Assembly (NCBI GenBank): GCA_964424195.1
Contig: CAYRHT010000002.1
Location: 8,458-72,457, forward strand
Direction: 5' to 3'
Length of the DNA: 64,000 bases
Source: an uncultured Gammaproteobacteria bacterium
Lineage (GTDB): Bacteria; Patescibacteriota; Patescibacteriia; UBA1558; S5-K13
Shown here: piece by piece, positions 11,186 through 41,219 of the stretch
Layout: each line of letters begins with the position of its first letter
Numbering within the stretch: the first letter of the stretch is position 1
Program-made: the position numbers and the translations under genes
Notes under the pieces: model-generated
The model's input: the letters and a program-made list of their open reading frames with translations, nothing else
The model's database searches: none
Told to the model about the DNA's origin: nothing

Positions 11186-12163
11186 ATGAAATTAAACAAA
11201 CAAAAAATAGTTCTATTGATAATTTTAATGCTAATAGTAGTAATCTCTTTATTTTTTATATTCAAGAAAGAAAAATATTTTATACTATATATAGAAGGTT
11301 TAGATCAGGGAGTTTTAAAGCAATATTCAACAGAAGATTTACCAAATTTGAAGTCTTTGTTCAGTGCCGATTTAAATTCAGAAATTGCTTTAAACAAGGA
11401 GTCAAGTTTTTTAACAATTTTATCAGGGGAGTATAAATATGGATCTTTTGATCAGAAGGATCCAAATAAATATATTGTTAGTAAAAAAAAGGTAGATAAT
11501 TTAGGATTATTTTATCAAACAAATCTATATCAAAATGTTAGAGAAAATAATTTATCTTTTAGATTTTTAGAAAGAATAGAAAAAATTTTAAAGCTGGATA
11601 AATTTAAAGAGGATATAATTGTTTATTTAACTAATTTGGAAAATAATGATTTAAATTCTTATCAAGAGATTGATGGCTTAGTAGCTCAAATAGAAAAGAA
11701 AATCGGTTTTAACACTAGATTATTAATTATTACTCCTAATTATGAAGAAGAAAATAGTTTTAGAGAAATTAATGAAAACTTAATAGATAAAGGATTTTTA
11801 ACTTGTCCCGATAACTTTCAAGACTTGTCAGAATGTGATTTAGCTAATTCTTTTGCTTATAGTCCTGCTCCAGGTGAAGTATATATTAACAAAAAAGGTC
11901 GAGAAGAGTTGGGTCGAGTAGATTGGGATTATGAAGGAGTCATTGAAGATACAGCTTATGTTTTAACTTCTGAAATAGAAGAGAAAGATTTAAGGATGTA
12001 TAAGAGTAGAAATTATTTTCAACAAAAAGATGTACCAGAAATATTTGTTTTTGAAAAACAAAGGGAAGAAAAGGGTATAATGCTATCGAACAAAAAATTT
12101 ACTCAGGATAAATATGATTATTTAGAAATTTTAAACTTAATTAACTTAATTAAAAATGATTAA
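11186..12163 (+). CDS. Hypothetical membrane-anchored protein of the surface-protein operon.
   Basis: N-terminal 'MKLNKQK' followed by a hydrophobic helix. It is tightly coupled to its neighbours, lying 2 nt after the previous stop and overlapping the next gene by 8 nt. There is a weak, unverified resemblance to the N-terminal core of the alkaline-phosphatase superfamily. Confidence 0.5.
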   Translation: MKLNKQKIVLLIILMLIVVISLFFIFKKEKYFILYIEGLDQGVLKQYSTEDLPNLKSLFSADLNSEIALNKESSFLTILSGEYKYGSFDQKDPNKYIVSKKKVDNLGLFYQTNLYQNVRENNLSFRFLERIEKILKLDKFKEDIIVYLTNLENNDLNSYQEIDGLVAQIEKKIGFNTRLLIITPNYEEENSFREINENLIDKGFLTCPDNFQDLSECDLANSFAYSPAPGEVYINKKGREELGRVDWDYEGVIEDTAYVLTSEIEEKDLRMYKSRNYFQQKDVPEIFVFEKQREEKGIMLSNKKFTQDKYDYLEILNLINLIKND

Positions 12164-18414: not shown

Positions 18415-21285
18415 ATGAACGATGATAAACAAAATAAATCTTCAGACTTGTTTAAAAAAGAACAAGAGATTTTAAAATTTTGGGAAGATAATAAGATTTT
18501 TGAGAAATCTTTAGAAAAAGATAGTCCTCAAGGCGAGTATTCTTTTTATGATGGACCTCCCTTTGCTACTGGATTACCTCATTACGGACATATTGTAGCT
18601 TCTTTACTAAAAGATATTTTCCCACGATATAAAACTATGCAAGGTTATTCTGTGAAGAGAAAATGGGGCTGGGATTGTCATGGTTTACCAATAGAAAGTT
18701 TAGTTGAAAAAGATTTACAAATTAAATCTAAAGATGAAATTGAAGATAAAATTGGTGTTGATAAATTTAATGAATCTTGTCGATCTTGTGTGATGAAATA
18801 TGCTGATGAATGGAAGAAATTTATTCCAATGATTGGTCGATGGGTTGACATGGAAGATGATTACAAAACCATGGATCCTGAGTATATGGAATCTATTTGG
18901 TGGGTTTTTAAATCATTATGGGAAAAAGGTTTGATTTATGAAGGATATAAATCAATGCATATTTGTCCTCATTGTGAAACAACTCTTTCTAATTTTGAAG
19001 TAACTCAAGGGTATAAAGATATTAAAGACTTGTCAGTTATAGCTAAGTTTGAATTAGTCGATGAACCCGGAACTTTTATTTTAGCTTGGACAACTACTCC
19101 TTGGACTTTGCCAGGAAATGTAGCCTTAGCTGTTGGTAAAAAAATGGATTATGTAAAAGTAGAAGTAGATGGTTTAAAATATATTTTAGCTAAAGAATTA
19201 GTGGAACAAGTCTTTACTGAGAAAGAATATACTATAGTAGAGGAACTTAAGGGTAAAGATTTAGTCGGTAAAGCCTATCAGCCATTATTTGATTATTTTA
19301 AAGATGCTGAAAATAAAGAAAATGGTTGGAAAATATATGATGCTGATTTTGTAACTATTGAAGATGGTACTGGAATTGTGCATATTGCTCCAGCTTTTGG
19401 TGAAGATGATATGAATTTAGGTAAAGATAATAATTTACCATTTGTTCAGCATGTTCATGGTAATGGTAAGTTTATAGAAGATATGGGTGATTTTGCTGGA
19501 TTAGAAGTAAAGCCTAAAGAAGATACTCAGAAAACTGATGTAGAAATTATTAAATATTTAGCTACTAAAGACTTGTTATTTTCTAAATTAAAATATGAAC
19601 ATTCATATCCTCATTGTTGGCGTTGTGATGCTCCATTATTAAACTACGCTACTAAGTCTTGGTTTGTAAAAGTTACTGAAATTAAAGATAAAATTATTGC
19701 TAATAATAATAAAGTAAATTGGGTGCCAGCTAATTTTAAAGAAGGTCGAATGGGTAAGTGGCTAGAAGGAGCTCGGGATTGGTCTATTTCCCGACAAAGA
19801 TATTGGGGTTCAGTAATGCCTATTTGGAAATGTTCTTGTGGTGAAATGAAGGTAATTGGTTCTATTGAGGAATTAGAAAAACTCTCTGGAAAAAAAGTGG
19901 AGGATTTACATAAACATGTCGTGGATAAAATAACTATTAAATGTGAAAAGTGTGATCAGGAAATGAATAGAATTCCAGATGTATTAGATTGTTGGTTTGA
20001 ATCTGGTTCTATGCCCTATGCTTCAGTTCATTATCCTTTTGAAAACAAAGAGTGGTTTGAGAATAATTTTCCAGCTGAATTTATTGCCGAAGGACAAGAT
20101 CAAACCAGAGGATGGTTCTATACTTTATTAGTACTATCTACTGCTTTATTCGATCAGCCAGCATTTTCTAATGTAGTAGTGAATGGTATGGCTTTAGCTG
20201 AAGACGGTAAGAAAATGTCTAAGAGATTAAAAAATTATCCAGATCCTTCAGAAATGATTTATAAATACTCAGCTGATGCTTTACGATATTATTTGCTTTC
20301 TTCTCCAATTGTGAAAGCTGGTGATTTATGTTTTTCTGAAAAAGATTTATCAAGTATCTATTATCGATATATTTCTACTCTAATGAATGTGCTTTCTTTC
20401 TATAATATGTATGCTCAGGAAGATGATGCTAATTTTTTAGAGCCAGAGCATGTATTGGATAAGTGGATTTTAGCTAAGCTAAAAGAATTAAAAAAGAATA
20501 TTACTGATAACTTAGAGAAATATGAAGTAAAGAAATCTATGGATCCAATTGGAGAATTTATTCTAGAGTTATCTACTTGGTATTTAAGACGTTCTCGAGA
20601 TAGATTTAAAGAAGACGATGTTTTGGGAAGAAAAACTTTACATTATGTTATTTTAGAATTTAGTAAATTAATTTCTCCTTTTATGCCTTTCCTAGCAGAG
20701 GACCTATACAAACAGATGAAGGGCGAGAAAGAATCAGTTCATTTAGATTCGTGGCCAGAATTAGAGAAATTAAGTAAAGAAGAAGTTGCACTATTAGAAG
20801 ATATGGAAACTGCTCGAAAAGTAGTAGAGAAATCTCATAATTTAAGAGATCAGGCTGGAATGAAAGTTAGACAACCACTAGCTTCTATAAAATATCATTT
20901 TGATAAAAAAGCATTGAAATCAAAATTTGAACAAATCATTGCTGAAGAGGTTAATGTAAAAGTTGTAGAATTTTCTAAAGATGTAGCCGAAAATGAAGTG
21001 GATTTAGATACTAAGCTTACTCCAGAATTAAAAGATGAAGCTAATGTGCGAGAATTAGTGAGACAAATTAACTCTCTTCGAAAGAAAGCTAATTTAACTA
21101 TTAAAGACACGGTGAAAGTTTACTTCCAGAGTGATGATTTAGCTAAATTAATCTTAGAGAACAAAGAATTTCTACAAAAAAATACTTTAGCAGAAGATGT
21201 TATTAATGATAAAGTTAATGAAAGTTTGATAACTAAAGAGGTAGAAATTAACGAGTTTAAAGTAGAAATTAGTTTAGTTTCTTAA
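18415..21285 (+). CDS. ileS: Isoleucyl-tRNA synthetase, type 2 (archaeal/eukaryote-like).
   Basis: Motifs 'PPFATGLPHYGHI' (HIGH-type), 'GWDCHGLPIE' and KMSKS ('KMSKRLKNYPDP'). Confidence 0.9.
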   Translation: MNDDKQNKSSDLFKKEQEILKFWEDNKIFEKSLEKDSPQGEYSFYDGPPFATGLPHYGHIVASLLKDIFPRYKTMQGYSVKRKWGWDCHGLPIESLVEKDLQIKSKDEIEDKIGVDKFNESCRSCVMKYADEWKKFIPMIGRWVDMEDDYKTMDPEYMESIWWVFKSLWEKGLIYEGYKSMHICPHCETTLSNFEVTQGYKDIKDLSVIAKFELVDEPGTFILAWTTTPWTLPGNVALAVGKKMDYVKVEVDGLKYILAKELVEQVFTEKEYTIVEELKGKDLVGKAYQPLFDYFKDAENKENGWKIYDADFVTIEDGTGIVHIAPAFGEDDMNLGKDNNLPFVQHVHGNGKFIEDMGDFAGLEVKPKEDTQKTDVEIIKYLATKDLLFSKLKYEHSYPHCWRCDAPLLNYATKSWFVKVTEIKDKIIANNNKVNWVPANFKEGRMGKWLEGARDWSISRQRYWGSVMPIWKCSCGEMKVIGSIEELEKLSGKKVEDLHKHVVDKITIKCEKCDQEMNRIPDVLDCWFESGSMPYASVHYPFENKEWFENNFPAEFIAEGQDQTRGWFYTLLVLSTALFDQPAFSNVVVNGMALAEDGKKMSKRLKNYPDPSEMIYKYSADALRYYLLSSPIVKAGDLCFSEKDLSSIYYRYISTLMNVLSFYNMYAQEDDANFLEPEHVLDKWILAKLKELKKNITDNLEKYEVKKSMDPIGEFILELSTWYLRRSRDRFKEDDVLGRKTLHYVILEFSKLISPFMPFLAEDLYKQMKGEKESVHLDSWPELEKLSKEEVALLEDMETARKVVEKSHNLRDQAGMKVRQPLASIKYHFDKKALKSKFEQIIAEEVNVKVVEFSKDVAENEVDLDTKLTPELKDEANVRELVRQINSLRKKANLTIKDTVKVYFQSDDLAKLILENKEFLQKNTLAEDVINDKVNESLITKEVEINEFKVEISLVS

Positions 21286-31428: not shown

Positions 31429-32395
31429 TAAGTTTTTATTTACTACGCAATTAAGACATATAAACGATTTGGATATGAAATATTCATTTCTAAGATTCAT
31501 TCCAAGATGTATAAAATATTTTTTATTAAAAATATACCCTATTAAGTATAAAATATATCCTTTATTAGAAAAAGGGAATATTAAGGGATATTTATTAGTA
31601 TTTTTATACACATCAAAACAAATTATTTCTAATAAAAAATATTTTAGTACTTTATTTTTGAAGATTATTAAAAAAATTAAACGTAAAATGAATTTTTCTA
31701 TTGTTGGATTAGGTTCTTTTACTTCAGTTGTTTCTCATGGTGGTGTAGATTATCATAATTCTATAAAGGATGTGTCATTTACAAACGGTAATGCTTTGAC
31801 TACTTATGTTACTTTTAAGCATTTATTGCAAATACTTGATTTTTTAGATAAAAAAATAAGTATAGCTGTTATTGGCGCGAATGGTTCTATAGGATCAGCT
31901 ATCACAGCTTTAATATGTCAGTCTGGAATGTTTGGTGATGTAATGTGTATAGTTAGAAATAATACAAGTGTTTTAGATTCTTATAATTTAAATAATATTT
32001 TAATATCTTCTGATATTAATAAAATATCATCATATGATGTTATTGTTATGTGTACTTCAAGTAAAGAGGTTTTATTAGATAAAATAAATCTTAAACCTGG
32101 TGTGATTATTTATGATATTACTCAGCCGTCTAATATTTCTGATAATTTTAAACATAAAAAGAATGTTAAAGTTTTTACTGGGGGATTATTAAAATTAGGA
32201 TCAAACTTGAAATTGAATATTGATTTAGGATATGGTAAAGATATAATTTACGGTTGTTTAGGGGAAACAATTTTATTGTCAATGTTTAAATATGATCAAG
32301 ATTTTTCTTTAGGACATGTAACTATTGATAAAGTTGAACAAATAGGAAATATGTTAAATGAATCAGAAATAAAAGTAATAAAATTAAAATTATGA
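31409..32395 (+). CDS. NAD(P)-binding reductase homologous to cyanobacterial acyl-ACP reductase (AAR, fatty-aldehyde forming).
   Basis: It aligns with AAR: 'LGSFTSVV' ~ 'LGGFTSII', 'FTNGNALTTYVTF' ~ 'FTTGNTHTAYVIC', 'IAVIGANGSIGSAI' ~ 'VAVVGATGDIGSAV'. It overlaps the synthetase by 20 nt and the kinase by 4 nt. Confidence 0.55.
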   Translation: MINFMSNKFLFTTQLRHINDLDMKYSFLRFIPRCIKYFLLKIYPIKYKIYPLLEKGNIKGYLLVFLYTSKQIISNKKYFSTLFLKIIKKIKRKMNFSIVGLGSFTSVVSHGGVDYHNSIKDVSFTNGNALTTYVTFKHLLQILDFLDKKISIAVIGANGSIGSAITALICQSGMFGDVMCIVRNNTSVLDSYNLNNILISSDINKISSYDVIVMCTSSKEVLLDKINLKPGVIIYDITQPSNISDNFKHKKNVKVFTGGLLKLGSNLKLNIDLGYGKDIIYGCLGETILLSMFKYDQDFSLGHVTIDKVEQIGNMLNESEIKVIKLKL

Positions 32396-34590
32396 GATCC
32401 TTATTATTATTTTTAATAGCGTGTATAAATTTGTTTTTAGGATTGATTATTCTCACTAAAGGTAAAAGTAAAAAATATAATATTTATTATTTTTTAGTTG
32501 TTTTATCTTTGTCGTTTTGGTCGCTTGGAGTGGGGATGTTTTATTATAATACAGATATTAGTTTTTATGACGTTTTTTTTGTAAAAGTATTATATTTTTT
32601 TGGCTCACTTATATCTACTAGTTTTTTAGGATTTGTTTTATCTTTTCCTAAAGATAAGAAAATAAATTTAAAATGGAATGTATTACTATTTTCCCCTAAT
32701 TTTTTATTATTCTATTTAATCTTTATAACAAATAATGTTATAGATAGTGTATATATTGATACTTTTAAAAAAATAGCATATGGTAACTATTTATTTATTT
32801 TTAATATAGAATTTATACTTATATTATTGGTAGCATATCTAATTTTATTAAAAAAATATTTTTTAGTTAAAAATAAAAATTCTTTATTAAAAAAACAATT
32901 ACAGTATATTACTATAGGAACTTTGATTTCTGCAATGATTGGTTCTTTTTGTAATATTATATTACCGGCTTTAGGAAATTTTTCAGTATTTTGGGTTGGT
33001 CCAGTTTCTACAATATTTATGGTGGGTTTATTTACTTATGCTATTACGCGTTATCGTCTCATGGATATCCGTCTAGTGATATCTAAAAGTATTTTGTACG
33101 TAGCTTTGGTTGGTATTATTACTTTCTTGTTTACTACAGCCACTTTGTTAACTGGAGAAATCTTTGTTGATATACCAGGGGTATCAAAGACATTAATTAC
33201 TTTAGGTGTTTCTTTAATAATAGTTATAGGAATTGATCCTCTGAAAAGATTTTTAAATAATATTACTGATAAAGTATTCTATAGAGGTAAAATTGATTAT
33301 CAAGATGTTTTAAGAAAGTTAGGTGGAATCATTGCTAAAGAAATTGATCTAAAAAAACTACTTATTGATTTATCTCATAATATTGAAGAGTTATTAAAGT
33401 ATAAAGAGGTAGATTTTTTGTATAAGAGTAATAGTTCTGGAATTTACCGAGGAATTATTAATAATAATGAGGTGATCACAGATAAAGAAGAAATAGTTAA
33501 ATATTTAGAAGATTCACGGGAGATTATTCTTACTGAAGAATTAGAAATTAAAGCACGTGATAAGGGTGTAGAAGAAAAAAAATATCTTCTTTCTATAGCT
33601 AAACGTTTACGAACAATGAATATTGGATTAATAGCTCCAATAATATCAGAAAATAATATCATTGCTTTTTTGATTATTAATAAGAAGTTATCAGACGATG
33701 TTTTTTCTACTCCAGATTTAAATTTAATATCAGTAATGACTCCTCAAATTGCTAATGCTTTAGAAAAGGCTAAACTATATAGCGAAGTTCAAGAATTTAA
33801 TGTTAAATTACAAGAAAAGGTGGATAAAGCTACTGGAGAATTAAAACGTGCTAATATTGATTTAAAAGAAGCCAATGTTCATTTAAAGCAATTAGATGAG
33901 GCTAAATCAGAATTTTTATCAATTGCTTCTCATCAATTGAGAACTCCATTAACTGGAATAAAAGGATATTTATCTATGATTCTAGAGGGGGACTATGGAA
34001 AGATGGATAAAAAACAAGAAAAGATTATTCAAGATGTATTTAATGCTAGTGATCGAATGAGTAGATTAATTAATGTCTTCTTAAATGTTTCTCGAATTGA
34101 ATCTGGTCGTTTGAAATTAGACTATACAGATGTTAATTTAGGAAATCTAATTAATGAATGTATTAAAGACTTGCACTCAACTGCTCAAGAAAAAGGTTTA
34201 GAGTTGAATTTTAAGTATCAGAAGAATGAAATTCCGTTAGTAAGCGTTGATTCTGATAAAATGAAAGATGTAGTTTTAAATTTAATTGATAATGCTATTA
34301 AATATACCCATAAAGGTAGGATTGATATTAAATTATTAAAAGAAGGGGAGGATAAAATTTTAGTTCAAATTAAGGATACTGGTATAGGTTTAGATCAAGC
34401 TGGAATAGAAAAATTATTTAGTAAATTTTCTCGAGGGGATGGTATTTCTAAGATTAATACAGGCGGTTCTGGGTTAGGTCTTTATATCGTGAAAAGAATT
34501 ATTGAAGAACATGGTGGAAAAGCTTGGGTAGAGAGTGATGGAGTGGGTAAGGGAAGTACTTTTCAATTTACTCTACCGATTAATAAATAG
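32392..34590 (+). CDS. Sensor histidine kinase with an N-terminal 7TM sensor, a GAF-like region, HisKA and HATPase_c.
   Basis: H-box 'ASHQLRTPLTGIKGY'; N/G boxes 'LIDNAIKYT' and 'DTGIGL...GGSGLGLYIVKRIIEEHGG'. Seven N-terminal helices are paralogous to 26659 and 27336. No response regulator lies in the window. Confidence 0.85.
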   Translation: MRSLLLFLIACINLFLGLIILTKGKSKKYNIYYFLVVLSLSFWSLGVGMFYYNTDISFYDVFFVKVLYFFGSLISTSFLGFVLSFPKDKKINLKWNVLLFSPNFLLFYLIFITNNVIDSVYIDTFKKIAYGNYLFIFNIEFILILLVAYLILLKKYFLVKNKNSLLKKQLQYITIGTLISAMIGSFCNIILPALGNFSVFWVGPVSTIFMVGLFTYAITRYRLMDIRLVISKSILYVALVGIITFLFTTATLLTGEIFVDIPGVSKTLITLGVSLIIVIGIDPLKRFLNNITDKVFYRGKIDYQDVLRKLGGIIAKEIDLKKLLIDLSHNIEELLKYKEVDFLYKSNSSGIYRGIINNNEVITDKEEIVKYLEDSREIILTEELEIKARDKGVEEKKYLLSIAKRLRTMNIGLIAPIISENNIIAFLIINKKLSDDVFSTPDLNLISVMTPQIANALEKAKLYSEVQEFNVKLQEKVDKATGELKRANIDLKEANVHLKQLDEAKSEFLSIASHQLRTPLTGIKGYLSMILEGDYGKMDKKQEKIIQDVFNASDRMSRLINVFLNVSRIESGRLKLDYTDVNLGNLINECIKDLHSTAQEKGLELNFKYQKNEIPLVSVDSDKMKDVVLNLIDNAIKYTHKGRIDIKLLKEGEDKILVQIKDTGIGLDQAGIEKLFSKFSRGDGISKINTGGSGLGLYIVKRIIEEHGGKAWVESDGVGKGSTFQFTLPINK

Positions 34591-34607: not shown

Positions 34608-35078
34608 ATGTATATTATTCATGAACAAAAACAAAGATCTAGTATTATAGTTATATTAATATATATTATTTCTTCTATAATTCTATTATTAGTTGTTATT
34701 AATCCAAGATTCTTAAGTTTACCGGAATTAACAAAAGTTTCTAGAATAGTTTTAATTATAGTTTTATTAATTGATATCTTTTTTTTAGAAAGTTTTTACG
34801 AATTGAAATTTAAAATAACTAATGAAGGTTTAGAATTTGGTTATGGTTTATTGAAGAATAAAATTAGTAAAAATAGTATTAAATCAATCTCAATTTATAG
34901 TTCTAAAGGCAATTTTTTTGGTTATGGTATTAGGTTTAATAAAAGTAAGGTAATGGGATTTATAGCTCAACATGGTGAAGGTTTAGAAATAACTCATAAA
35001 GACCAAAGGAAGTTTTTTATTACTATGAATAATCCACAAGAAGCCTTAGATATTATTAAAGAAAATAACTATGTATAA
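34608..35078 (+). CDS. Hypothetical membrane protein (bacterial PH-like?).
   Basis: An N-terminal hydrophobic helix followed by a small soluble domain. It overlaps pgk by 8 nt. Confidence 0.35.
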   Translation: MYIIHEQKQRSSIIVILIYIISSIILLLVVINPRFLSLPELTKVSRIVLIIVLLIDIFFLESFYELKFKITNEGLEFGYGLLKNKISKNSIKSISIYSSKGNFFGYGIRFNKSKVMGFIAQHGEGLEITHKDQRKFFITMNNPQEALDIIKENNYV

Positions 35079-36264
35079 ATTTAAGAGCATTAGAAAAATA
35101 GGGGATTTACAGGGCAAAAAAGTTTTGTTGAAGTTAGATTTGAATTTATCTTTAGATAAAACTGGAACAGTTAATGAAGATTCTGTATTAAGGATTGAAT
35201 CAGTATTGCCAACTATAAATTATTTAATGGATAAAGGATCTAGAATAATAATAATTTCCTATTTAGGTCGACCAGCTGGTAAATTTGTAGAAGAATTAAA
35301 GATGAATCCAGTAGCAGAGCTATTATCAAAATATGTAAATAAAGAAGTAAAGAAATTAGATTCTAGTATGGTTCAAAATACAAAGAAAGATATTGATAAT
35401 ATGGGAGATTCCGATATTATTTTGTTGGAAAATATTAGATTCTATAAAGAAGAAAAAGAAAATGATGAGAAAATGGCAGAATCCTTAGCTAAATTATTTG
35501 ATATTTATGTTAATGATTCATTTTCTAATGCTCATCGAAAACATATGTCATCCTGTGCAATTACGAACTTTTTACCTAGTTATATGGGATTTAAATTCCA
35601 AGAAGAAATAGAAAATTTAAATAATATTTTAGAAATGGATTGTTCTAATCGCTTATTAATTTTAGGAGGAGCTAAACTTAAAACTAAGTTAGTTTTAATT
35701 GAAAAATTGAAAGATAAGTTTGATAAGATATTATTAGGTGGAGTAATGGCTAATACTTTTTTAAAGGCTAGAGGAATGGATATTGGTAAATCTATTTTTG
35801 AAGAGGAGTGTTTAGAAAAAGCAAAAAATATTGATAGCGACAAAATTATTCTTCCAATAGATATTTTAGTTTCCAAAGAGATTAACAATGAGTCATCTAT
35901 TTTAACTAAAGACATAGAAGAGATAAATTCAGATGAATTAATTTTAGACATAGGTCCTAAAACAATTAAATTATTTTTAGATTATATTAAGAGTACTGAT
36001 TTAATACTTTGGAATGGTCCGATGGGATATTTTGAATTAAATCAATTTAAAAATGGAACTCAAGAATTAATTACAGCTATGGTTAGTTCTAAAGCAAAAA
36101 TATATACTGGAGGAGGGGAGACTATTACTGTTTTAAATGAAATGAAGATGAATCAAGATTTTAATTTTGTTTCTACTGGAGGAGGAGCAATGCTAGAATT
36201 TTTAGCTGGGAATGAACTACCAGCTTTACAAGCTTTAGAAGATAATGTTTTAAAATTTAAGTAA
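35071..36264 (+). CDS. pgk: Phosphoglycerate kinase.
   Basis: 'KKVLLKLDLN', 'ENIRFYKEEKEN', the 'GGGA' C-terminal hinge and 397 aa length. Confidence 0.9.
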   Translation: MYKFKSIRKIGDLQGKKVLLKLDLNLSLDKTGTVNEDSVLRIESVLPTINYLMDKGSRIIIISYLGRPAGKFVEELKMNPVAELLSKYVNKEVKKLDSSMVQNTKKDIDNMGDSDIILLENIRFYKEEKENDEKMAESLAKLFDIYVNDSFSNAHRKHMSSCAITNFLPSYMGFKFQEEIENLNNILEMDCSNRLLILGGAKLKTKLVLIEKLKDKFDKILLGGVMANTFLKARGMDIGKSIFEEECLEKAKNIDSDKIILPIDILVSKEINNESSILTKDIEEINSDELILDIGPKTIKLFLDYIKSTDLILWNGPMGYFELNQFKNGTQELITAMVSSKAKIYTGGGETITVLNEMKMNQDFNFVSTGGGAMLEFLAGNELPALQALEDNVLKFK

Positions 36265-36283: not shown

Positions 36284-37543
36284 ATGCCTAAAATTGAGAA
36301 AATAATTGCGCGAGAAATTCTAGATTCTCGAGGTAATCCAACTGTTAGTGCTACGGTATTTTTAACTGATGGTAAATATTATTTCGCTTCTGCTCCATCT
36401 GGAGCTTCTACTGGAAGTTCAGAAGCTTATGAACTAAGAGATCAAGATAATTCTCGATATCATGGTTTAGGAGTTTTAAAAGCAATAGAGAATATTAATA
36501 CTAAAATAAACGAAGAGTTGAAAGGTTTAGATATTAGTGATCCGAGGAGTTTAGATAAAAAGATGATTGATCTTGATGCTAGTGATAACAAGATGAATTT
36601 AGGAGCTAACGCTATAATTGCTGTTTCTTTAGCTATTAATAAAGCAGCAGCTGGTAGTAGTAATTTACCTTTGTATAAATTTATTAACGAATATTATGAT
36701 TTTGCATCTGACCCTAAATTACCAATACCTTTGGTAAACATTTTTAATGGCGGAAAGCATGCTAGTACTAATTTAGATTTTCAAGAATTATGGATAATTC
36801 CAGAGAAATTTAGTAATTTTCAAGAAAGACTAAGAGTAAGCTCAGAAATTTTTCATGAATTTGGCAAGGTTTTGTCTGAGAATGCTTATGATACAGATTT
36901 AGGCAATGAAGGTGGTTATGCTCCAGATTTGAAGGAAACTGATGATTCTTGGGAGATGATCCTCCAAGCTATCAAGAGAGCTGGTTATGAGGGTAAAATT
37001 AGCCTAGGATTAGATGCTGGAGCTACTACTTTCTATAATAAGCATTCTAAGAAATATAAGATAAAATTAGATAAAAAAGATTTGAATTCTACAGAAATGA
37101 TAAATTATTATATGAATTGGCTTAAGAAATATCCTATTAAATATATTGAAGACCCTTTAGATGAAGATGATTGGAATAATTGGAAAGAACTTAAAAAAAC
37201 TATGGATTTATCTCGGAAAGATATAATTATTATTGGAGATGATTTATTCACTACTAATGTAAAGAGATTACAAAGAGGAATAGATGAAAATAGTGCTAAT
37301 GGAATTATTATCAAACCAAACCAAATTGGAACTATTAGTGAAACTATTGATTGTATTAAATTAGCACAAGATAACAAGTTCTCAATAATTATTTCACATC
37401 GAAGCGGTGAAACTTGTGATGATTTTATTGCTGATTTAGCAGTTGGTTCTGGAGCTGAACATATTAAAACTGGCTCTATTTCTCGAGGAGAAAGAGTTTG
37501 TAAATATAATAGATTATTAGCAATTGAAGGAGAATTATTATGA
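36284..37543 (+). CDS. eno: Enolase.
   Basis: 'IIAREILDSRGNPTVSATV', 'SHRSGETCD' and 419 aa length. Confidence 0.92.
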   Translation: MPKIEKIIAREILDSRGNPTVSATVFLTDGKYYFASAPSGASTGSSEAYELRDQDNSRYHGLGVLKAIENINTKINEELKGLDISDPRSLDKKMIDLDASDNKMNLGANAIIAVSLAINKAAAGSSNLPLYKFINEYYDFASDPKLPIPLVNIFNGGKHASTNLDFQELWIIPEKFSNFQERLRVSSEIFHEFGKVLSENAYDTDLGNEGGYAPDLKETDDSWEMILQAIKRAGYEGKISLGLDAGATTFYNKHSKKYKIKLDKKDLNSTEMINYYMNWLKKYPIKYIEDPLDEDDWNNWKELKKTMDLSRKDIIIIGDDLFTTNVKRLQRGIDENSANGIIIKPNQIGTISETIDCIKLAQDNKFSIIISHRSGETCDDFIADLAVGSGAEHIKTGSISRGERVCKYNRLLAIEGELL

Positions 37544-39093
37544 AGAAAAAACAAGTAATTTTAGCTATCTTAGACGGTTGGGGTATAACAAAAGCTTCTA
37601 AGGGTAATGTTATAACATTAGCAAAGACTCCTACTTATGATTGTCTATTAAAACATTATCCTAATACAAAATTAGTTGCTAGTGGCGCTAAGGTTGGTTT
37701 ACCTAGTACTCAAGATGGTAATTCTGAAGCTGGTCATATGAATATTGGAGCAGGAAGAGTTATTAAGCAAGATGATATGTATATTACTAGTGCTATTAAA
37801 AATGGTACATTCTTAAAGAATCCAGCTTTTTTAGAAGCCATTCATCATGCCAAGGAAAATAAATCTAGTATTCATTTAATAGGTTTATTGACTGGGATTC
37901 AAAGTGCTCATGTTAATCCGGAACATTTAAATCAATTATTAGGTCTTTTAAAGAAAGAGAAAGTAGAGAAAGTTTATTTACATTTATTTAGTGATGGTCG
38001 AGATGCTCCTAAATATGAAAGTGTGAATTATCTCAAAAAATTAAAATCTAAATTTAGAAATGGAGAAAAAATAGCTAGCATTAGTGGTAGATTCTTTGCT
38101 ATGGATCGGAATAAGAAATGGGTAAATAGTGAGAAAGCATATAAAGCTATGGTGAATGGTAAGGGGCGAGAAGCAAAGTCTGCTGAGGAAGCTATAACTC
38201 AAGCTTATAATAGTGGTGAATCAGATGAGTTTATTACTCCAACGGTTATTGTGAATAATAAGAAACCAGTTGGGAAAATAGAGGATAATGATGCTATTAT
38301 TTTCTTTAATTTAAGATCAGATAGAGCCAGGCAATTGACCAAATTATTTGTTCAGAAGAATATTTGTGATCGGAATAAAACTTGTAGAATTAATCGAAAT
38401 AAATTAAAGAATATTAAATTTGTTTCCATGAGTGATTTTGGACCAGACCTAGATGATATTTTAACTGCTTTTCCATCGCGTGATTTATTAGAAACTTTAC
38501 CAATGCAGTTGAAGGAGTATCGACAACTATATATGGCTGAAAGTGAAAAATATGCTCATGTAACTTACTTTTTTAATGGTGGGTATAAAGATCCAGTAGC
38601 TGGAGAAGCTAGAGAAATGATTCCTTCACCAGATGTTGATTCTTATGATCAAAAACCAGAAATGAGTTCTCATAAGATTGTTAGGAAGTTAAAAAGTTAT
38701 ATTAAAAATGATAAGTATGATTTTTATGTTGTTAATTTTGCTAGTCCAGATATGGTAGCTCATACTGGTAATTTAGAAGCGGGAATTAAAGCAGTAGAAG
38801 ACGTTGATAGGTGTTTGAAAGAATTATGTGAAGTGGTTAAGAAGAAAAGGAATATGAGTATGATTATAACTTCAGATCATGGTAATGTGGAAGAGATGAT
38901 TAAGTTAGAAACTGGTGAAATTGATACTAAGCATTCTAGTAATCCAGTACCTTTTATTTTAGTTGATAGTCAATTAAAGAATAAGAAGTTACGCCAAGGT
39001 ATTTTAGGTGATATTGCTCCAACTATTTTAGATATTATGGGCATAACAAAACCTAAATTAATGTCTGGTAAAAGTTTATTAAAAAATAGATAA
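37540..39093 (+). CDS. gpmI: 2,3-bisphosphoglycerate-independent phosphoglycerate mutase.
   Basis: 'LAILDGWGI', 'GNSEAGHMNIGAGR', 'DMVAHTG' and 'SDHGN'. It overlaps eno by 4 nt. Confidence 0.9.
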   Translation: MKKKQVILAILDGWGITKASKGNVITLAKTPTYDCLLKHYPNTKLVASGAKVGLPSTQDGNSEAGHMNIGAGRVIKQDDMYITSAIKNGTFLKNPAFLEAIHHAKENKSSIHLIGLLTGIQSAHVNPEHLNQLLGLLKKEKVEKVYLHLFSDGRDAPKYESVNYLKKLKSKFRNGEKIASISGRFFAMDRNKKWVNSEKAYKAMVNGKGREAKSAEEAITQAYNSGESDEFITPTVIVNNKKPVGKIEDNDAIIFFNLRSDRARQLTKLFVQKNICDRNKTCRINRNKLKNIKFVSMSDFGPDLDDILTAFPSRDLLETLPMQLKEYRQLYMAESEKYAHVTYFFNGGYKDPVAGEAREMIPSPDVDSYDQKPEMSSHKIVRKLKSYIKNDKYDFYVVNFASPDMVAHTGNLEAGIKAVEDVDRCLKELCEVVKKKRNMSMIITSDHGNVEEMIKLETGEIDTKHSSNPVPFILVDSQLKNKKLRQGILGDIAPTILDIMGITKPKLMSGKSLLKNR

Positions 39094-39094
39094 T

Positions 39095-39883
39095 ATGAAT
39101 GAGTTTATAAGACCAAAACCTCTATGTTTAATTGTAATTAGTGGATTACATGTTAATCAGTTATTTGAAAGTAAAACTTCTAATATTAAAGCTCTAATTA
39201 ACAATTACCCCTTTTTAATTCTAAACTCAGATAAGAGAAATGTTGATAATTTTCAAGATTCTTATATTGAATTAGGTAGTGGGTCTAGTATTAGTGAAGA
39301 TAATAAGATTACTTTATCAAAAGTAATCAGTGATGCAGGATTAAGTCAATTACATTTAGCTGATACAGAATCTTATGCTTACAATACTTACTTTTTTAAT
39401 AATCAGAATAAAGTAAAGCATAAGAAGGAGGTTTGGCTTAAGAAATCTTTGTTAAAAGTTGATTCTCATTTAGAGCATATTGATGCAATGCATAGTAAAA
39501 TAACTAAAGATTTAATTAAAGAAATTAATAAACAAGACCATGATTTTATTGTTGTTAATTATAACGATCTCTTAGTCAATACGGACAAGGTTAAAACTAT
39601 TAATAATTTAGATAAGAATATAAAAGATATAATTGATATTGTGTTATCTTTTAATGGAGCAGTTTTAATAACATCAAACAGTAGTTTAAATAGTTTAGAT
39701 AATAGAGTACCTTTCTTTTTAATTGGTAAGCAGTGGCAGAATAAAAGTTATGTAGATTTTGATTTTAGAAAAAAAATTAATGAGCAAGATATTGGTGGTG
39801 ATATTACTCAAATTTCTCCTACAGTATTAAAAATACTTGGATTATCTAAACCTAGAGAAATGAAAACAAATTCTTTAATTTAA
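39095..39883 (+). CDS. Degenerate iPGM phosphatase-domain paralog: it lacks the transferase insertion and the metal and catalytic residues, so it is a probable pseudoenzyme.
   Basis: It aligns with both the N- and C-terminal segments of the adjacent gpmI: 'LIVISGLHV' ~ 'LAILDGWGI', 'YAYNTYFFN' ~ 'YAHVTYFFN', 'DHDFIVVNYNDLLVNTD' ~ 'KYDFYVVNFASPDMVAHTG', 'ITSNSS' ~ 'ITSDHGN', 'ISPTVLKILGLSKP' ~ 'IAPTILDIMGITKP'. The Asp/His metal ligands are replaced. Confidence 0.6.
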   Translation: MNEFIRPKPLCLIVISGLHVNQLFESKTSNIKALINNYPFLILNSDKRNVDNFQDSYIELGSGSSISEDNKITLSKVISDAGLSQLHLADTESYAYNTYFFNNQNKVKHKKEVWLKKSLLKVDSHLEHIDAMHSKITKDLIKEINKQDHDFIVVNYNDLLVNTDKVKTINNLDKNIKDIIDIVLSFNGAVLITSNSSLNSLDNRVPFFLIGKQWQNKSYVDFDFRKKINEQDIGGDITQISPTVLKILGLSKPREMKTNSLI

Positions 39884-39884
39884 A

Positions 39885-39910
39885 AAGTCCTGTTAATTAA
39901 CAGGACTTTA
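39885..39910. terminator. Bidirectional hairpin terminator between convergent genes.
   Basis: 'aaagtcctgttaattaacaggacttt': a perfect 10-bp stem flanked by A/T runs on both sides. Confidence 0.65.
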
Positions 39911-39926
39911 TTAGAATCAGATATAA

Positions 39927-40358
39927 TTATAATAGATAGAGTAGAAAGTAGGTTAAAATAAATCCAGTGATAACCCCAGTAATTACTTGAGTAACTGTAT
40001 GAGAAATTCTTTCATTTAAAGTTTTATATTTATATTCTAGTTCATCTGGAAGATCAATGATTAATTTATTTATAGCTCTACTGTGTTCTGTTAAATATCC
40101 TCTAAAACCAATAGCATCAGTTATAACAATAAGAGCAAAGAAGAAACTTACTGCAAAAGCTGAACTATTTAGACCTTCTTGAAAACCAATCACTGTAGCT
40201 AAAGAAGTAACTAGAGCACTATGAGCAGAAGGCATTCCACCATAGGCTAGTAAGTTCTTCCAAGAAAATTTACCTCTAATTGCTTCAATTAGTTGTTTGA
40301 TTACTAATTGAGTTAAAAGAGCTATTCCCAAAGGTATTAAAATGAATTGATAGAGCAT
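39927..40358 (-). CDS. Divergent-PAP2 family membrane protein (YuiD/DUF212-like).
   Basis: The 'GGMPSAHSA' motif and four transmembrane helices. Confidence 0.65.
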   Translation of the reverse strand: MLYQFILIPLGIALLTQLVIKQLIEAIRGKFSWKNLLAYGGMPSAHSALVTSLATVIGFQEGLNSSAFAVSFFFALIVITDAIGFRGYLTEHSRAINKLIIDLPDELEYKYKTLNERISHTVTQVITGVITGFILTYFLLYLL

Positions 40359-40418: not shown

Positions 40419-41219
40419 ATGATTATTTATCTCAATACAATATTATTAGCATTAGTTCAGGCGATGACTGAATTTTTACCAGTTTCTAGCTCTGGGCATT
40501 TGATTTTATTTCATAATTTATTAGATTCAGATATTTTAAATACTTTAGCTTTTGATGTTGCTCTACATGGTGGTAGCTTATTAGCAATCATAATATTTTT
40601 CTATAAAAATATTAAGAAAGCAGTAGATAATTTTGTAATTAATTTAAAGAATAAAACATTAAAGAAAGATTTAGTATTAATTATTCTTATTTCTATTATT
40701 CCGGCTGGTTTGATAGGTTTATTTTTAGAAGATTTTATAGATAGTTTTTTAAGAAAACCTATTATTGTTGCTGGAGCATTAATATTTGGTTCAATATTAT
40801 TTATTCTTGTTGAAAAACTATATAAACCAAAAAAAGAGTTATCAAATGTAAGTATTTCTAATGGTATTTTTATTGGAATTATGCAGTGTTTAGCATTCAT
40901 TCCTGGTATGTCTAGAAGTGGTATTACTATTGTAGCTGGTATGAATAGAGGACTAACTAGAACTGATGCTGCTAGGTTCTCCTTTTTGTTAGCAATTCCT
41001 TTGTTATTAGGAGCTTTTATTAAAAAAACAGCCGATGTTTTAACATCCACTGCTCAATTCAATTTTTATTTTGTTTTAGGTTTTTTTATGGCATTTATTT
41101 TTAGCTTACTGGCTATTAGAATCTTAATGAAATTGTTAAGAGCTAAATCTGCTTTGTATGGTTTTGCAATCTATAGAATAATTCTAGCTTTAATTATAAT
41201 TTTCTTAGTTTTAAACTAA
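40419..41219 (+). CDS. uppP: Undecaprenyl-diphosphatase.
   Basis: 'MTEFLPVSSSGHLIL', 'PGMSRSGITI', eight transmembrane helices and 266 aa length. Confidence 0.88.
   Translation: MIIYLNTILLALVQAMTEFLPVSSSGHLILFHNLLDSDILNTLAFDVALHGGSLLAIIIFFYKNIKKAVDNFVINLKNKTLKKDLVLIILISIIPAGLIGLFLEDFIDSFLRKPIIVAGALIFGSILFILVEKLYKPKKELSNVSISNGIFIGIMQCLAFIPGMSRSGITIVAGMNRGLTRTDAARFSFLLAIPLLLGAFIKKTADVLTSTAQFNFYFVLGFFMAFIFSLLAIRILMKLLRAKSALYGFAIYRIILALIIIFLVLN

What the first reader, a model, noticed from the sequence alone, without database searches (positions are those of the whole stretch)
39095..39883. Miniaturised, catalytically dead paralog of the iPGM phosphatase domain directly downstream of gpmI
The 262-aa protein aligns with both the N-terminal (~80 aa) and C-terminal (~180 aa) parts of the adjacent gpmI, but lacks the central phosphotransferase domain. 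Metal and catalytic residues are replaced: 'LDGWG' becomes 'ISGLH', 'SDHGN' becomes 'TSNSS', 'DMVAHTG' becomes 'DLLVNTD'. It starts 2 nt after gpmI and ends at a strong hairpin terminator. It is a retained pseudoenzyme derived from tandem duplication, possibly a regulatory or binding partner of iPGM or a repurposed phosphoester-binding protein.
Basis: seen in the sequence. Interest (0 to 1): 0.55.

Follow-up and report, generated by a model that had tools for sequence, protein, structure and literature searches.

The report
Dead, domain-less phosphoglycerate mutase paralog
Right after a normal glycolytic phosphoglycerate mutase gene sits a small, well-conserved gene for a shrunken copy that has lost its substrate-binding domain and nearly all catalytic residues yet is kept by natural selection, and it belongs to an apparently undescribed group of such shortened copies in the tiny-celled Patescibacteria.

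Summary

It is not decaying. There are 14+ orthologs (42-100% identity), dN/dS is 0.12-0.16 (gpmI 0.08-0.12), and synteny holds in 14/14 loci.

It is not a copy of the adjacent gpmI ("A"). Related Patescibacteria carry two intact full-length iPGMs in tandem (A, B), and the mini occupies slot B. It aligns better to B copies (scores 278-299 vs 134-197), shares B-only characters (6 vs 0), and is closer to B in 500/500 bootstraps.

A wider set of 255-306-aa transferase-less iPGM homologs (9/9 to 0/9 catalytic residues) fills the same post-enolase slot in other Patescibacteria, often without full-length gpmI. I found no curated model or paper describing them.

Function is inferred, not shown. Most likely it is a non-catalytic binding or regulatory protein made together with the lower-glycolysis enzymes. 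The pseudoenzyme call is supported; "recent tandem duplicate" is not.

The parts
39095..39883 (+). Gene for the 262-aa 'mini-iPGM': a stand-alone, catalytically dead alkaline-phosphatase-type core descended from iPGM copy B
39095..39295 (+). N-terminal segment (about residues 1-67), equivalent to iPGM residues ~1-78. Ser16 replaces the metal ligand Asp12, the Ser62 nucleophile region is lost, and invariant Tyr57 replaces His66.
   Evidence: N-terminal profile hits the first 100 aa of full-length iPGMs in 150 of 155 hits, best E 2.8e-7. Catalytic table.
39296..39880 (+). C-terminal segment (residues 68-262), equivalent to residues 317-531 of the B-type iPGM P0204. The junction with the N-terminal segment marks the clean excision of the ~235-aa transferase domain (PF06415).
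   Evidence: hhalign of A1 vs P0204: 40% identity over 193 columns, E 3.6e-29. BLASTP vs the neighbour gpmI, E 2e-18.
39728..39790 (+). B-type 'long loop' (residues ~212-232, motif K212-x-W214-x-x-K217). It is absent from the adjacent gpmI and conserved in B-type iPGMs and the mini clade.
   Evidence: Loop length 38-39 residues vs 25-28. K212, W214 and K217 are shared only with B-type copies.
37540..39093 (+). gpmI copy A: full-length, catalytically intact iPGM (517 aa), one base upstream of the mini
   Evidence: TIGR01307 568.6 bits (cutoff 330.65). 16/16 catalytic and substrate-binding residues.
36284..37543 (+). Enolase gene, overlapping the gpmI start by 4 nt; same operon
   Evidence: ORF. 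Enolase Pfam domains on the orthologous genes. Synteny tally.
35071..36264 (+). Phosphoglycerate kinase gene, first recognisable glycolytic gene of the co-oriented block
   Evidence: ORF. PGK Pfam domain on the orthologous genes. Synteny tally.
39884..39909 (.). Perfect 11-bp hairpin with an AATT loop, starting right after the mini's stop codon and lying between convergent genes; a likely bidirectional transcription stop
   Evidence: dG -15.7 kcal/mol, z -4.25. Not listed by the consensus terminator scan, because the U-tract is weak.
39927..40358 (-). DUF212 (divergent PAP2 family) gene, convergent with the mini. It is the conserved downstream neighbour of the mini, short-form or B slot in nearly all lineages sampled (context, not shown to be functionally linked).
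   Evidence: PF02681, 114.7 bits. Synteny.

Best explanation
**What it is (shown)**
- The gene encodes a folded, stand-alone alkaline-phosphatase-type core.
- It is the descendant of the second ('B') of two ancient tandem iPGM paralogs found in a group of Patescibacteria.
- In this Komeilibacteria-like lineage, copy B lost its ~235-aa phosphotransferase (substrate-binding) domain. It also lost the Ser nucleophile and all, or all but one, of the Mn2+ ligands and catalytic residues.
- It therefore cannot act as a metal-dependent mutase or phosphatase of the iPGM type.
- It is nevertheless kept under purifying selection about as strong as that on the neighbouring active enzymes.

**How it is expressed (inferred from layout)**
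- It is the last gene of the co-oriented pgk-eno-gpmI(A)-mini block.
- It starts one base after gpmI here and overlaps gpmI by 14-17 nt in relatives, so it is probably co-transcribed and translationally coupled.
- A hairpin lies immediately after its stop codon.

**What it does (inferred, not shown)**
- It most likely acts non-catalytically, as a binding, regulatory or scaffold protein tied to the lower-glycolysis enzymes it is made with.
- It would use surfaces inherited from copy B, such as the conserved K-x-W-x-x-K long loop, rather than the old active site.

**Confidence split**
- Identity and evolutionary origin: about 0.9.
- Non-catalytic partner of lower-glycolysis enzymes: about 0.3.
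For: **Fold and homology**
- PF01676 above cutoff and no PF06415.
- Model pLDDT 93.7, pTM 0.92.

**Loss of catalysis**
- 0/9 catalytic residues by MAFFT.
- 1/9 at most by hhalign (Asp158, which is D or N across the clade).
- Ser16 aligns to Asp12.

**Selection**
- 14 orthologs with 63 invariant columns.
- dN/dS 0.12-0.16, vs 0.08-0.12 for gpmI and 0.09-0.11 for enolase, at dS 0.47-0.69.
- Intact ORF and identical synteny in 14/14 loci.

**Origin from copy B**
- L019 and L020 carry pgk-eno-A-B-DUF212 with both copies 16/16 intact.
- The mini scores 278-299 against B-type copies and 134-197 against A copies.
- Its own neighbour ranks 117/176 by distance.
- 6 B-only vs 0 A-only shared characters, 500/500 bootstraps closer to B, and no rate asymmetry (A-outgroup 0.564, B-outgroup 0.557).
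- It has the B-type long loop.

**Coupling**
- 1-nt gap here; 14-nt and 17-nt overlaps in L009 and L015.

**Retained B-specific surface residues**
- K212, W214, K217, K246, I247 and G249.

**Precedents (function by analogy only)**
- The PbgA/YejM domain, whose PDB entry titles call it an LPS-binding protein and cardiolipin transporter, appears among the structural matches.
- The inactive paralog GMPPA regulates the active GMPPB (PMC11228364 abstract).
Against: - No direct evidence of any interaction or expression; no complex prediction could be run.
- Gaps of 57-220 nt separate gpmI and the mini in L001, L003 and L004, so tight translational coupling is not universal.
- Independently dead or near-dead short forms (P0130 0/9, P0044 2/9, P0027 4/9) sit after enolase with no adjacent full-length gpmI. 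A partner role specifically for iPGM-A therefore cannot be the general reason such proteins are kept.
- Bacterial iPGMs are, to my knowledge, monomers, so there is no precedent for an iPGM-iPGM complex.
- Several residues at the former active site are themselves strongly conserved in the clade (Tyr57 and Tyr94 in all 21 mini-clade sequences, Tyr96 invariant in the 14-sequence alignment, Ser93 and Ser196 86%). That is also compatible with a repurposed pocket.
Confidence: 0.55

Rival explanations
1. Repurposed pocket. The former active-site cleft, now lined by Ser16, Tyr57, Ser93, Tyr94, Tyr96, Asn195, Ser196 and Asn203, binds a small molecule without metal (a sensor or carrier) or supports a new metal-independent reaction.
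For: - Tyr57 and Tyr94 are conserved in all 21 mini-clade sequences and Tyr96 is invariant in the 14-sequence alignment; Ser93 and Ser196 are conserved at 86%.
- 16 residues are newly fixed in the mini clade at positions that vary in iPGMs.
- Purifying selection is strong.
Against: - The nine former catalytic positions are on average no more conserved (~0.7) than the protein as a whole (mean column identity 67%).
- Ser62, Asp403, Asp444 and His462 equivalents vary within the clade.
- Most 3-PG/2-PG-binding residues of iPGM lie in the deleted domain.
- No candidate nucleophile/base pair is invariant: His19 is Asn in some members.
Confidence: 0.2
2. The function relates to the cell-envelope genes downstream (DUF212/PAP2-like and BacA/UppP) rather than to glycolysis. 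Alkaline-phosphatase-fold domains often handle lipid-linked phosphates, and PbgA/YejM is deposited as an LPS-binding protein.
For: - DUF212 is the conserved immediate downstream neighbour of the mini, short-form or B slot in nearly every lineage sampled, and BacA often follows.
- PbgA/YejM, LtaS and EptA-type domains are among the structural matches.
Against: - DUF212 is on the opposite strand (convergent), so it is not co-transcribed.
- The same adjacency holds for intact full-length copy B (L020), which looks like ordinary conserved gene order.
- The mini has no signal peptide or membrane segment beyond the beta-1 strand (sequence; model).
Confidence: 0.1
3. Decaying duplicate: a pseudogene remnant with an accidentally open frame and no function.
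For: - All catalytic residues and a whole domain are gone.
- It evolves faster than its neighbours (66%/48% identity vs 78%/67% for gpmI).
- Its GC content is lower than gpmI's (24.7 vs 30.9%).
Against: - dN/dS is 0.12-0.16.
- Full-length intact ORFs of 255-278 aa occur in every ortholog, down to 42% identity.
- There are 63 invariant columns.
- The fold prediction is confident.
- Synteny holds in 14/14 loci.
Confidence: 0.03
4. Recent lineage-specific tandem duplicate of the adjacent gpmI, followed by an internal deletion.
For: Adjacency and the same orientation, and significant similarity to the neighbour.
Against: - The neighbour ranks 117/176 by distance (59, 165 and 169 in the orthologous pairs).
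- Alignment scores to B copies are roughly twice those to A copies.
- The long-loop indel and 6 vs 0 shared characters point to B; 500/500 bootstraps agree.
- Full-length A+B tandems exist in relatives, with B in the mini's slot.
Confidence: 0.03
5. Still an active metalloenzyme, or one half of a split iPGM that works with a separately encoded transferase domain.
For: Some members of the wider short family keep 9/9 phosphatase-domain residues (P0076, P0112, P0120, P0167).
Against: - This protein keeps 0-1 of 9.
- No second PF06415-like ORF exists anywhere in the 64-kb window (tblastn).
Confidence: 0.02

Closest known systems
Cofactor-independent phosphoglycerate mutase (GpmI/iPGM; TIGR01307; e.g. 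Geobacillus stearothermophilus 1EJJ/1O98, T. brucei 3NVL)
   Same: - Same operon position next to enolase and pgk.
- It keeps 31 core residues shared with all iPGMs.
   Different: - It lacks the inserted transferase domain (PF06415).
- It lacks the Ser62 nucleophile, His66, Lys336 and the Mn ligands.
- It scores 78.7 bits against a curated cutoff of 330.65.
- It cannot be filed as an iPGM.
B-type ('long-loop') second tandem iPGM of Patescibacteria (P0193 in a Komeilibacteria MAG, P0204; uncurated group seen here)
   Same: - Same genomic slot: after gpmI-A and before the convergent DUF212.
- Closest full-length relatives, at 40-43% identity.
- It shares the 38-39-residue loop and the K-x-W-x-x-K motif.
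   Different: The B copies are 528-531 aa with 16/16 catalytic and substrate-binding residues intact. The mini has lost the domain and the chemistry.
Other transferase-domain-less iPGM homologs of Patescibacteria (255-306 aa; e.g. P0112, P0105, P0027, P0044, P0130; no curated family)
   Same: - Same architecture, with N- and C-terminal phosphatase segments joined directly.
- Same post-enolase, pre-DUF212 slot.
- Many have the long loop.
   Different: - They range from 9/9 to 0/9 catalytic residues.
- Many have no adjacent full-length gpmI.
- Whether they share one domain-loss event with the mini clade is unresolved (deep NJ bootstrap is about 0).
PbgA/YejM periplasmic domain (alkaline-phosphatase-superfamily domain; PDB 6XLP, 6VAT)
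   Different: A membrane-anchored, periplasmic, lipid-binding protein with no specific sequence relationship. This is an analogy of principle only.
Inactive paralogs that regulate their active sibling (e.g. GMPPA-GMPPB, PMC11228364; HisZ-HisG and the AdoMetDC prozyme, from my own knowledge)
   Same: A dead paralog retained under selection and encoded with, or next to, the active enzyme.
   Different: No interaction has been shown here. Dead short forms also occur without an adjacent active iPGM.

Membership tests
iPGM / GpmI (TIGR01307, EC 5.4.2.12) | Whole-protein score at or above the curated equivalog cutoff | tested here: not met
   78.7 bits vs cutoff 330.65. NF003897 gives 45.1 vs 862. 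The neighbour gpmI scores 568.6.
iPGM / GpmI (TIGR01307, EC 5.4.2.12) | Two-domain architecture: phosphatase core (PF01676) with the inserted phosphotransferase domain (PF06415, iPGM_N) | tested here: not met
   Only PF01676 is found. Residues equivalent to about 80-316 of iPGM are absent. No PF06415-like ORF exists elsewhere in the window.
iPGM / GpmI (TIGR01307, EC 5.4.2.12) | Ser62 nucleophile and Mn2+ ligands Asp12, Asp403, His407, Asp444, His445, His462, plus His66 and Lys336 | tested here: not met
   Signature 0/9 by MAFFT. At most Asp158 = Asp403 by hhalign. Ser16 aligns to Asp12.
iPGM / GpmI (TIGR01307, EC 5.4.2.12) | Mutase activity on 3-PG/2-PG | not testable with these tools
   Needs an enzyme assay. 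Activity is predicted absent from the residue losses.
Pfam PF01676 Metalloenzyme / alkaline-phosphatase superfamily (fold level) | Score above the gathering threshold and an alkaline-phosphatase-type alpha/beta core | tested here: met
   [not shown]
Pseudoenzyme (working definition as in PMC5106787, PMC10211241) | Homolog of an enzyme family that lacks the conserved catalytic motifs | tested here: met
Pseudoenzyme (working definition as in PMC5106787, PMC10211241) | Retained as a functional gene (purifying selection, conserved orthologs) | tested here: met
   dN/dS 0.12-0.16. 14+ orthologs. Synteny in 14/14 loci.
Pseudoenzyme (working definition as in PMC5106787, PMC10211241) | Experimentally shown lack of the ancestral activity | not testable with these tools
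   Requires purified protein.
Transferase-domain-less iPGM homologs of Patescibacteria (uncurated group defined here) | 255-306 aa, with collinear N- and C-terminal phosphatase segments and no PF06415 | tested here: met
Transferase-domain-less iPGM homologs of Patescibacteria (uncurated group defined here) | Located downstream of enolase (with or without gpmI-A) and upstream of a convergent DUF212 | tested here: met
   Window. Others. Exceptions: L010 has no glycolytic context, and L016 has no DUF212.
Transferase-domain-less iPGM homologs of Patescibacteria (uncurated group defined here) | Single common origin (one domain-loss event) | tested here: inconclusive
   Deep nodes of the NJ tree have bootstrap of about 0. 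The mini clade's nearest relatives by distance are full-length B copies, not other short forms, which hints at repeated loss.

The most novel reading that the evidence does not exclude
The window protein is the fully degenerate end of a widespread, undescribed Patescibacteria family of transferase-domain-less iPGM homologs. The family occupies the phosphoglycerate-mutase slot of the pgk-eno operon and persists whether or not catalytic residues, or a full-length iPGM, are present. Its selected function would therefore be non-catalytic, for example an obligatory partner of enolase or PGK. On this reading the family underlies the reported 'missing or too-divergent PGM' of several Parcubacteria clades (PMC7304191). 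In this genome the mini would modulate or organise the PGK/iPGM-A/enolase steps.
Probability: 0.25. Interest if true: 0.75.

Novelty: new variant of a known kind. Interest (0 to 1): 0.6.

Why it matters
**1. Metabolic reconstruction**
- JGI annotates these proteins as iPGM, while NCBI calls them hypothetical.
- In genomes that carry only a dead short form, the PGM step is either wrongly credited or unexplained.
- Jaffe et al. [quoted passage not shown] The short forms are concrete candidates for that gap.

**2. Evolution**
- The loci give an unusually complete series within one conserved genomic slot: two intact tandem paralogs, then a domain-deleted but catalytically intact copy, then partly dead copies, then a fully dead copy under selection.
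- That makes it a natural system for studying how a metabolic enzyme becomes a pseudoenzyme.

**3. Biochemistry**
- I found no report of a stand-alone iPGM phosphatase domain, whether active (9/9 forms) or dead.
- Finding its partner or ligand could reveal how glycolysis is organised in ultra-small symbiotic bacteria.

Tried and rejected
- **First structure prediction.** Using only the 14 close orthologs, the model was too poor to use (pLDDT 53). It was replaced by a 48-sequence alignment of diverse short forms (pLDDT 93.7).
- **Long loop as a short-form marker.** My idea that the ~12-residue longer loop before 'APTIL' marks short forms was wrong. 118 of 176 full-length Patescibacteria iPGMs also have it. 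It marks the B type, not the short architecture.
- **NJ tree.** The tree of 243 phosphatase-domain sequences did not resolve deep nodes (bootstrap about 0). The number of domain-loss events remains open.
- **Genome-contig scan.** It returned only 3 loci.
- **Profile word-index search with the short-family alignment.** It returned mostly full-length iPGMs.
- **afdb50 fold library.** Unavailable.
- **Other libraries.** PADLOC gave no hit. NCBIfam has no dedicated model for any short form. There is no tRNA or Rfam element in the window.
- **Literature.** Four searches found no description of a domain-less or dead iPGM.
- **Split-enzyme idea.** Rejected within this window, because there is no second transferase-domain ORF in the 64 kb.
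- **Fusion or frameshift with gpmI.** Rejected. The genes are in different frames, and 57-220-nt gaps separate them in orthologous loci.
- **Not possible with these tools.** Surface-conservation mapping on the model could not be done because the coordinates are not exposed. No heteromer prediction could be run.
Full report
**1. The observation**

The ORF at 39095-39883 (+) is real. It is 262 aa, starts with ATG, and begins one base after the TAA of a 517-aa gpmI at 37540-39093.

- BLASTP against that neighbour aligns residues 85-262 to gpmI 329-514 (30% identity, E=2e-18). Residues 26-77 align weakly to gpmI 28-86 (E=0.04).
- Pfam finds only PF01676 (44.5 bits, cutoff 24.3). The neighbour has PF01676 with PF06415 (iPGM_N, residues 82-300) inserted in it.
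- NCBIfam's iPGM equivalog TIGR01307 scores 78.7 bits against a cutoff of 330.65.
- The N-terminal homology is solid at profile level. An HMM of mini residues 1-72 places 150 of its 155 hits in the first 100 residues of full-length iPGMs (best E=2.8e-7). It aligns Ser16 to the metal ligand Asp12.
- An AlphaFold2 model built on 48 diverse relatives is confident (pLDDT 93.7, pTM 0.92).

The protein is therefore a complete, stand-alone iPGM phosphatase core with the transferase domain cleanly excised.

**2. Catalytic residues**

Numbering follows the G. stearothermophilus enzyme. The window gpmI has all sixteen catalytic and substrate-binding residues. The mini compares as follows:

| iPGM residue | State in the mini |
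|---|---|
| Asp12 | Ser16 |
| Ser62 (nucleophile) | Region lost; a variable Phe or other residue aligns there |
| His66 | Tyr57, invariant in the clade |
| Lys336 | Ser93 |
| Asp403 | Asp158 by hhalign; D or N across orthologs, and shifted in MAFFT |
| His407 | Asn162 |
| Asp444 | Asn195 |
| His445 | Ser196 |
| His462 | Lost |

That leaves 0-1 of 9. All seven substrate-binding residues of the transferase domain are gone with the domain. The exception is 'SDHGN', which corresponds to 'SNSSL' rather than 'TSNSS', a one-residue offset.

**3. Hairpin**

An 11-bp perfect stem (39884-39894 / 39899-39909) with an AATT loop begins right after the stop codon. Folding of 39870-39930 gives -15.7 kcal/mol and z=-4.25. 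It sits between the mini and a convergent DUF212 gene at 39927-40358(-). The U-tract is weak and the consensus terminator scan did not report it.

**4. Not a decaying gene**

- A search of 5.8 billion proteins found 14 full-length relatives of 255-278 aa at 47-100% identity. The exhaustive HMM search added P0019-P0022, which are 36-42% identical to the window protein.
- The 14-sequence alignment has 63 invariant columns.
- Nei-Gojobori dN/dS between moderately diverged pairs (L002, L003, L004; dS 0.47-0.69) is 0.12-0.16 for the mini. It is 0.08-0.12 for the adjacent gpmI and 0.09-0.11 for enolase.
- The mini evolves faster than its neighbours: 66% and 48% identity to L001 and L003/L004, against 78% and 67% for gpmI. 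It is still clearly constrained.
- In all 14 loci that carry a mini-clade gene, a full-length gpmI lies immediately upstream and DUF212 lies convergent downstream.

**5. Origin: copy B, not the neighbour**

- On a 243-sequence alignment of phosphatase-domain parts, the mini's own neighbour ranks only 117th of 176 full-length iPGMs by distance. The ranks are 59th, 165th and 169th for the orthologous pairs.
- The nearest full-length proteins are P0209, P0204, P0215 and P0201. P0193, from a Komeilibacteria MAG, is among the nearest for the L001 ortholog.
- Context look-ups for P0193 and P0204 were decisive. L019 and L020 read pgk-eno-iPGM(518-519 aa)-iPGM(528-531 aa)-DUF212(-), that is, two full-length iPGMs in tandem. 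Both have 16/16 key residues.
- The second copy ('B') sits exactly where the mini sits in the window. The first copy ('A') is the ortholog of the window gpmI (51-53% identity to A copies against 45% to B copies).
- The mini's local alignment scores are 278-299 against B-type copies and 134-197 against A copies, its own neighbour included.
- hhalign of the mini family against P0204 gives 40% identity over 193 columns (E=3.6e-29).
- B-type proteins and the mini share a loop of 38-39 residues between 'NPVPF' and 'APTIL'. A-type proteins have 25-28.
- Characters conserved in the mini clade and shared with only one copy number 6 for B and 0 for A. The mini is closer to B in 500 of 500 bootstrap replicates. 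A and B are equidistant from an outgroup (0.564 and 0.557), which excludes a rate artefact.

'Tandem duplication' is therefore right only in an ancient sense. The mini is the remnant of paralog B, not a fresh copy of the adjacent gene.

**6. A wider, apparently undescribed family**

The exhaustive HMM search found 1,578 hits at E<=1e-3. Among the best 150, about 45 are representatives (at the 50% identity level) of 255-306 aa that align over the whole mini profile. Their sequences show the same architecture and a graded catalytic signature:

| Catalytic residues kept | Examples |
|---|---|
| 9/9 | P0076, P0112, P0120, P0167 |
| 8/9 (Ser62 -> Cys) | P0104, P0105 |
| 6/9 | P0025, P0026 |
| 4/9 | P0027 |
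| 2/9 | P0044 |
| 0/9 | P0130, P0156, and the mini clade |

Their genomic contexts are:

- L016: TIM-FBA-GAPDH-PGK-ENO-[P0112, 9/9]-PfkB.
- L007: eno-[P0076, 9/9].
- L018: eno-x-gpmI-[P0105, 8/9], with DUF212 and BacA further downstream.
- L011, L013, L030: PDZ-pgk-eno-[4/9, 2/9, 0/9]-DUF212(-)-gyrB(-), with no adjacent full-length gpmI.
- L010 is the only sampled case without glycolytic neighbours.

All named sources are Patescibacteria. No NCBIfam model covers these proteins. JGI labels them iPGM and NCBI labels them hypothetical. Four literature searches found no description. Jaffe et al. [quoted passage not shown]

Whether the domain was lost once or repeatedly is unresolved, because deep bootstrap support is about 0. 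The mini clade is nearest to full-length B copies rather than to other short forms, which hints at repeated loss.

**7. What the protein keeps**

Among positions at least 90% conserved in the 21-member mini clade:

- 31 are shared with all iPGMs. These are core strands and helices, e.g. Y38-P39, Q85-L86, Y94, F101-N102, D150-F151, N155, V205-P206 and P242-T243-I244-L245.
- 12 are shared only with B-type copies. They include K212, W214 and K217 in the B-specific loop, and K246, I247 and G249 around the C-terminal helix.
- 16 are newly fixed (C11, L18, W114, Y156, K177, S218, F219, Q231 and others).

The nine former catalytic positions are on average as conserved as the rest of the protein (about 0.7), neither relaxed nor specially constrained. 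This does not separate a 'scaffold' role from a 'repurposed pocket'.

**8. Mechanism**

*Shown:* a folded, non-metal-binding, nucleophile-less alkaline-phosphatase core under purifying selection. It is encoded as the last gene of the co-oriented pgk-eno-gpmI block, with a 1-nt gap here and 14-17-nt overlaps in L009 and L015.

*Inferred:*
- It is co-transcribed and often translationally coupled with iPGM-A.
- It acts non-catalytically, most plausibly by binding a protein of lower glycolysis through B-derived surfaces.

I put about 0.9 on the identity and origin and about 0.3 on this mechanism. The main rivals are:

- A repurposed metal-free ligand pocket (0.2).
- A role linked to the envelope genes DUF212/BacA (0.1). 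The argument against it is the convergent orientation.
- Decaying pseudogene, recent duplicate of the neighbour, or active/split enzyme (each 0.03 or less). These are contradicted and 27/68 respectively.

A caution for the partner-of-iPGM-A idea is that dead short forms also persist without an adjacent gpmI.

**9. Comparison and novelty**

- It is a member of the PF01676/alkaline-phosphatase superfamily by score and by fold.
- It fails every iPGM-defining test: cutoff score, architecture and catalytic residues.
- It meets the sequence-level definition of a pseudoenzyme.
- PbgA/YejM is a superfamily domain deposited as a lipid-binding protein rather than an enzyme. GMPPA-GMPPB is a precedent for a dead paralog regulating its active sibling (PMC11228364). 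Both are analogies only.
- I rate it a new variant of a known kind. Interest is 0.6. The function is still unknown, but the locus series from A+B to A+mini, and to mini alone, is a clean natural record of an enzyme becoming a pseudoenzyme. It also bears directly on the unexplained PGM gap in Parcubacteria.

Noticed in passing
window 34608-35078 (+): A 156-aa ORF with no Pfam match and a hydrophobic N-terminal half overlaps the pgk start by 8 nt. It is conserved in the same position in L001 (69% identity) and L004 (57%), but the ORFs upstream of pgk in L019 and L020 are unrelated. It may be an uncharacterised first gene of the operon.
   Followed up: partly
L016 7001-7882 (and L017): A 293-aa transferase-domain-less iPGM homolog (P0112) with all 9 phosphatase-domain catalytic residues ends a complete TIM-FBA-GAPDH-PGK-ENO operon, with no full-length iPGM adjacent. 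This raises the question of whether a stand-alone phosphatase domain can be an enzyme.
   Followed up: partly
L030 7001-7852; L013 7001-7915; L011 7001-7897: Short forms with 0/9, 2/9 and 4/9 catalytic residues sit in PDZ-pgk-eno-[short]-DUF212(-)-gyrB(-) with no adjacent full-length gpmI. Whether these genomes have any phosphoglycerate mutase elsewhere could not be checked.
   Followed up: partly
L019 5440-8587; L020 5442-8596: Two full-length, catalytically intact iPGM genes lie in tandem (A 518-519 aa, B 528-531 aa; 42-45% identical to each other) in Komeilibacteria-related genomes. Why a reduced genome keeps two intact iPGMs is unexplained.
   Followed up: partly
L002, L003 (records CAZXCJ010000040.1, CAZAOE010000004.1): The records are titled 'uncultured Gammaproteobacteria bacterium' MAGs but carry the same pgk-eno-gpmI-mini-DUF212-BacA block as the Patescibacteria loci. 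They are probably mis-binned or mislabelled.
   Followed up: no
window 39927-40358 (-) and 40419-41219 (+): DUF212 (divergent PAP2) and BacA/UppP follow the mini. DUF212 convergent to the mini, short-form or B slot is conserved across nearly all lineages sampled, which is unusually stable gene order across deep divergence.
   Followed up: partly
window 1-64000: There are no tRNA genes and no Rfam family above threshold in 64 kb. Overall GC is 29.0% (mini 24.7%, gpmI 30.9%).
   Followed up: yes
window 139-8682, 12156-17228, 18415-21285 (+): Very large ORFs (2847, 1690 and 956 aa) lie upstream on the same strand. They were not examined.
   Followed up: no
window 32392-34590 (+): A HisKA_7TM-type histidine kinase lies just upstream of the glycolytic block. 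A similar kinase lies upstream in L020.
   Followed up: no
Annotations of P0001, P0008, P0044, P0130: JGI names the dead short proteins '2,3-bisphosphoglycerate-independent phosphoglycerate mutase', while NCBI PGAP calls them 'hypothetical protein'. Pathway reconstructions that rely on the JGI name would credit a PGM step that these proteins cannot perform.
   Followed up: yes
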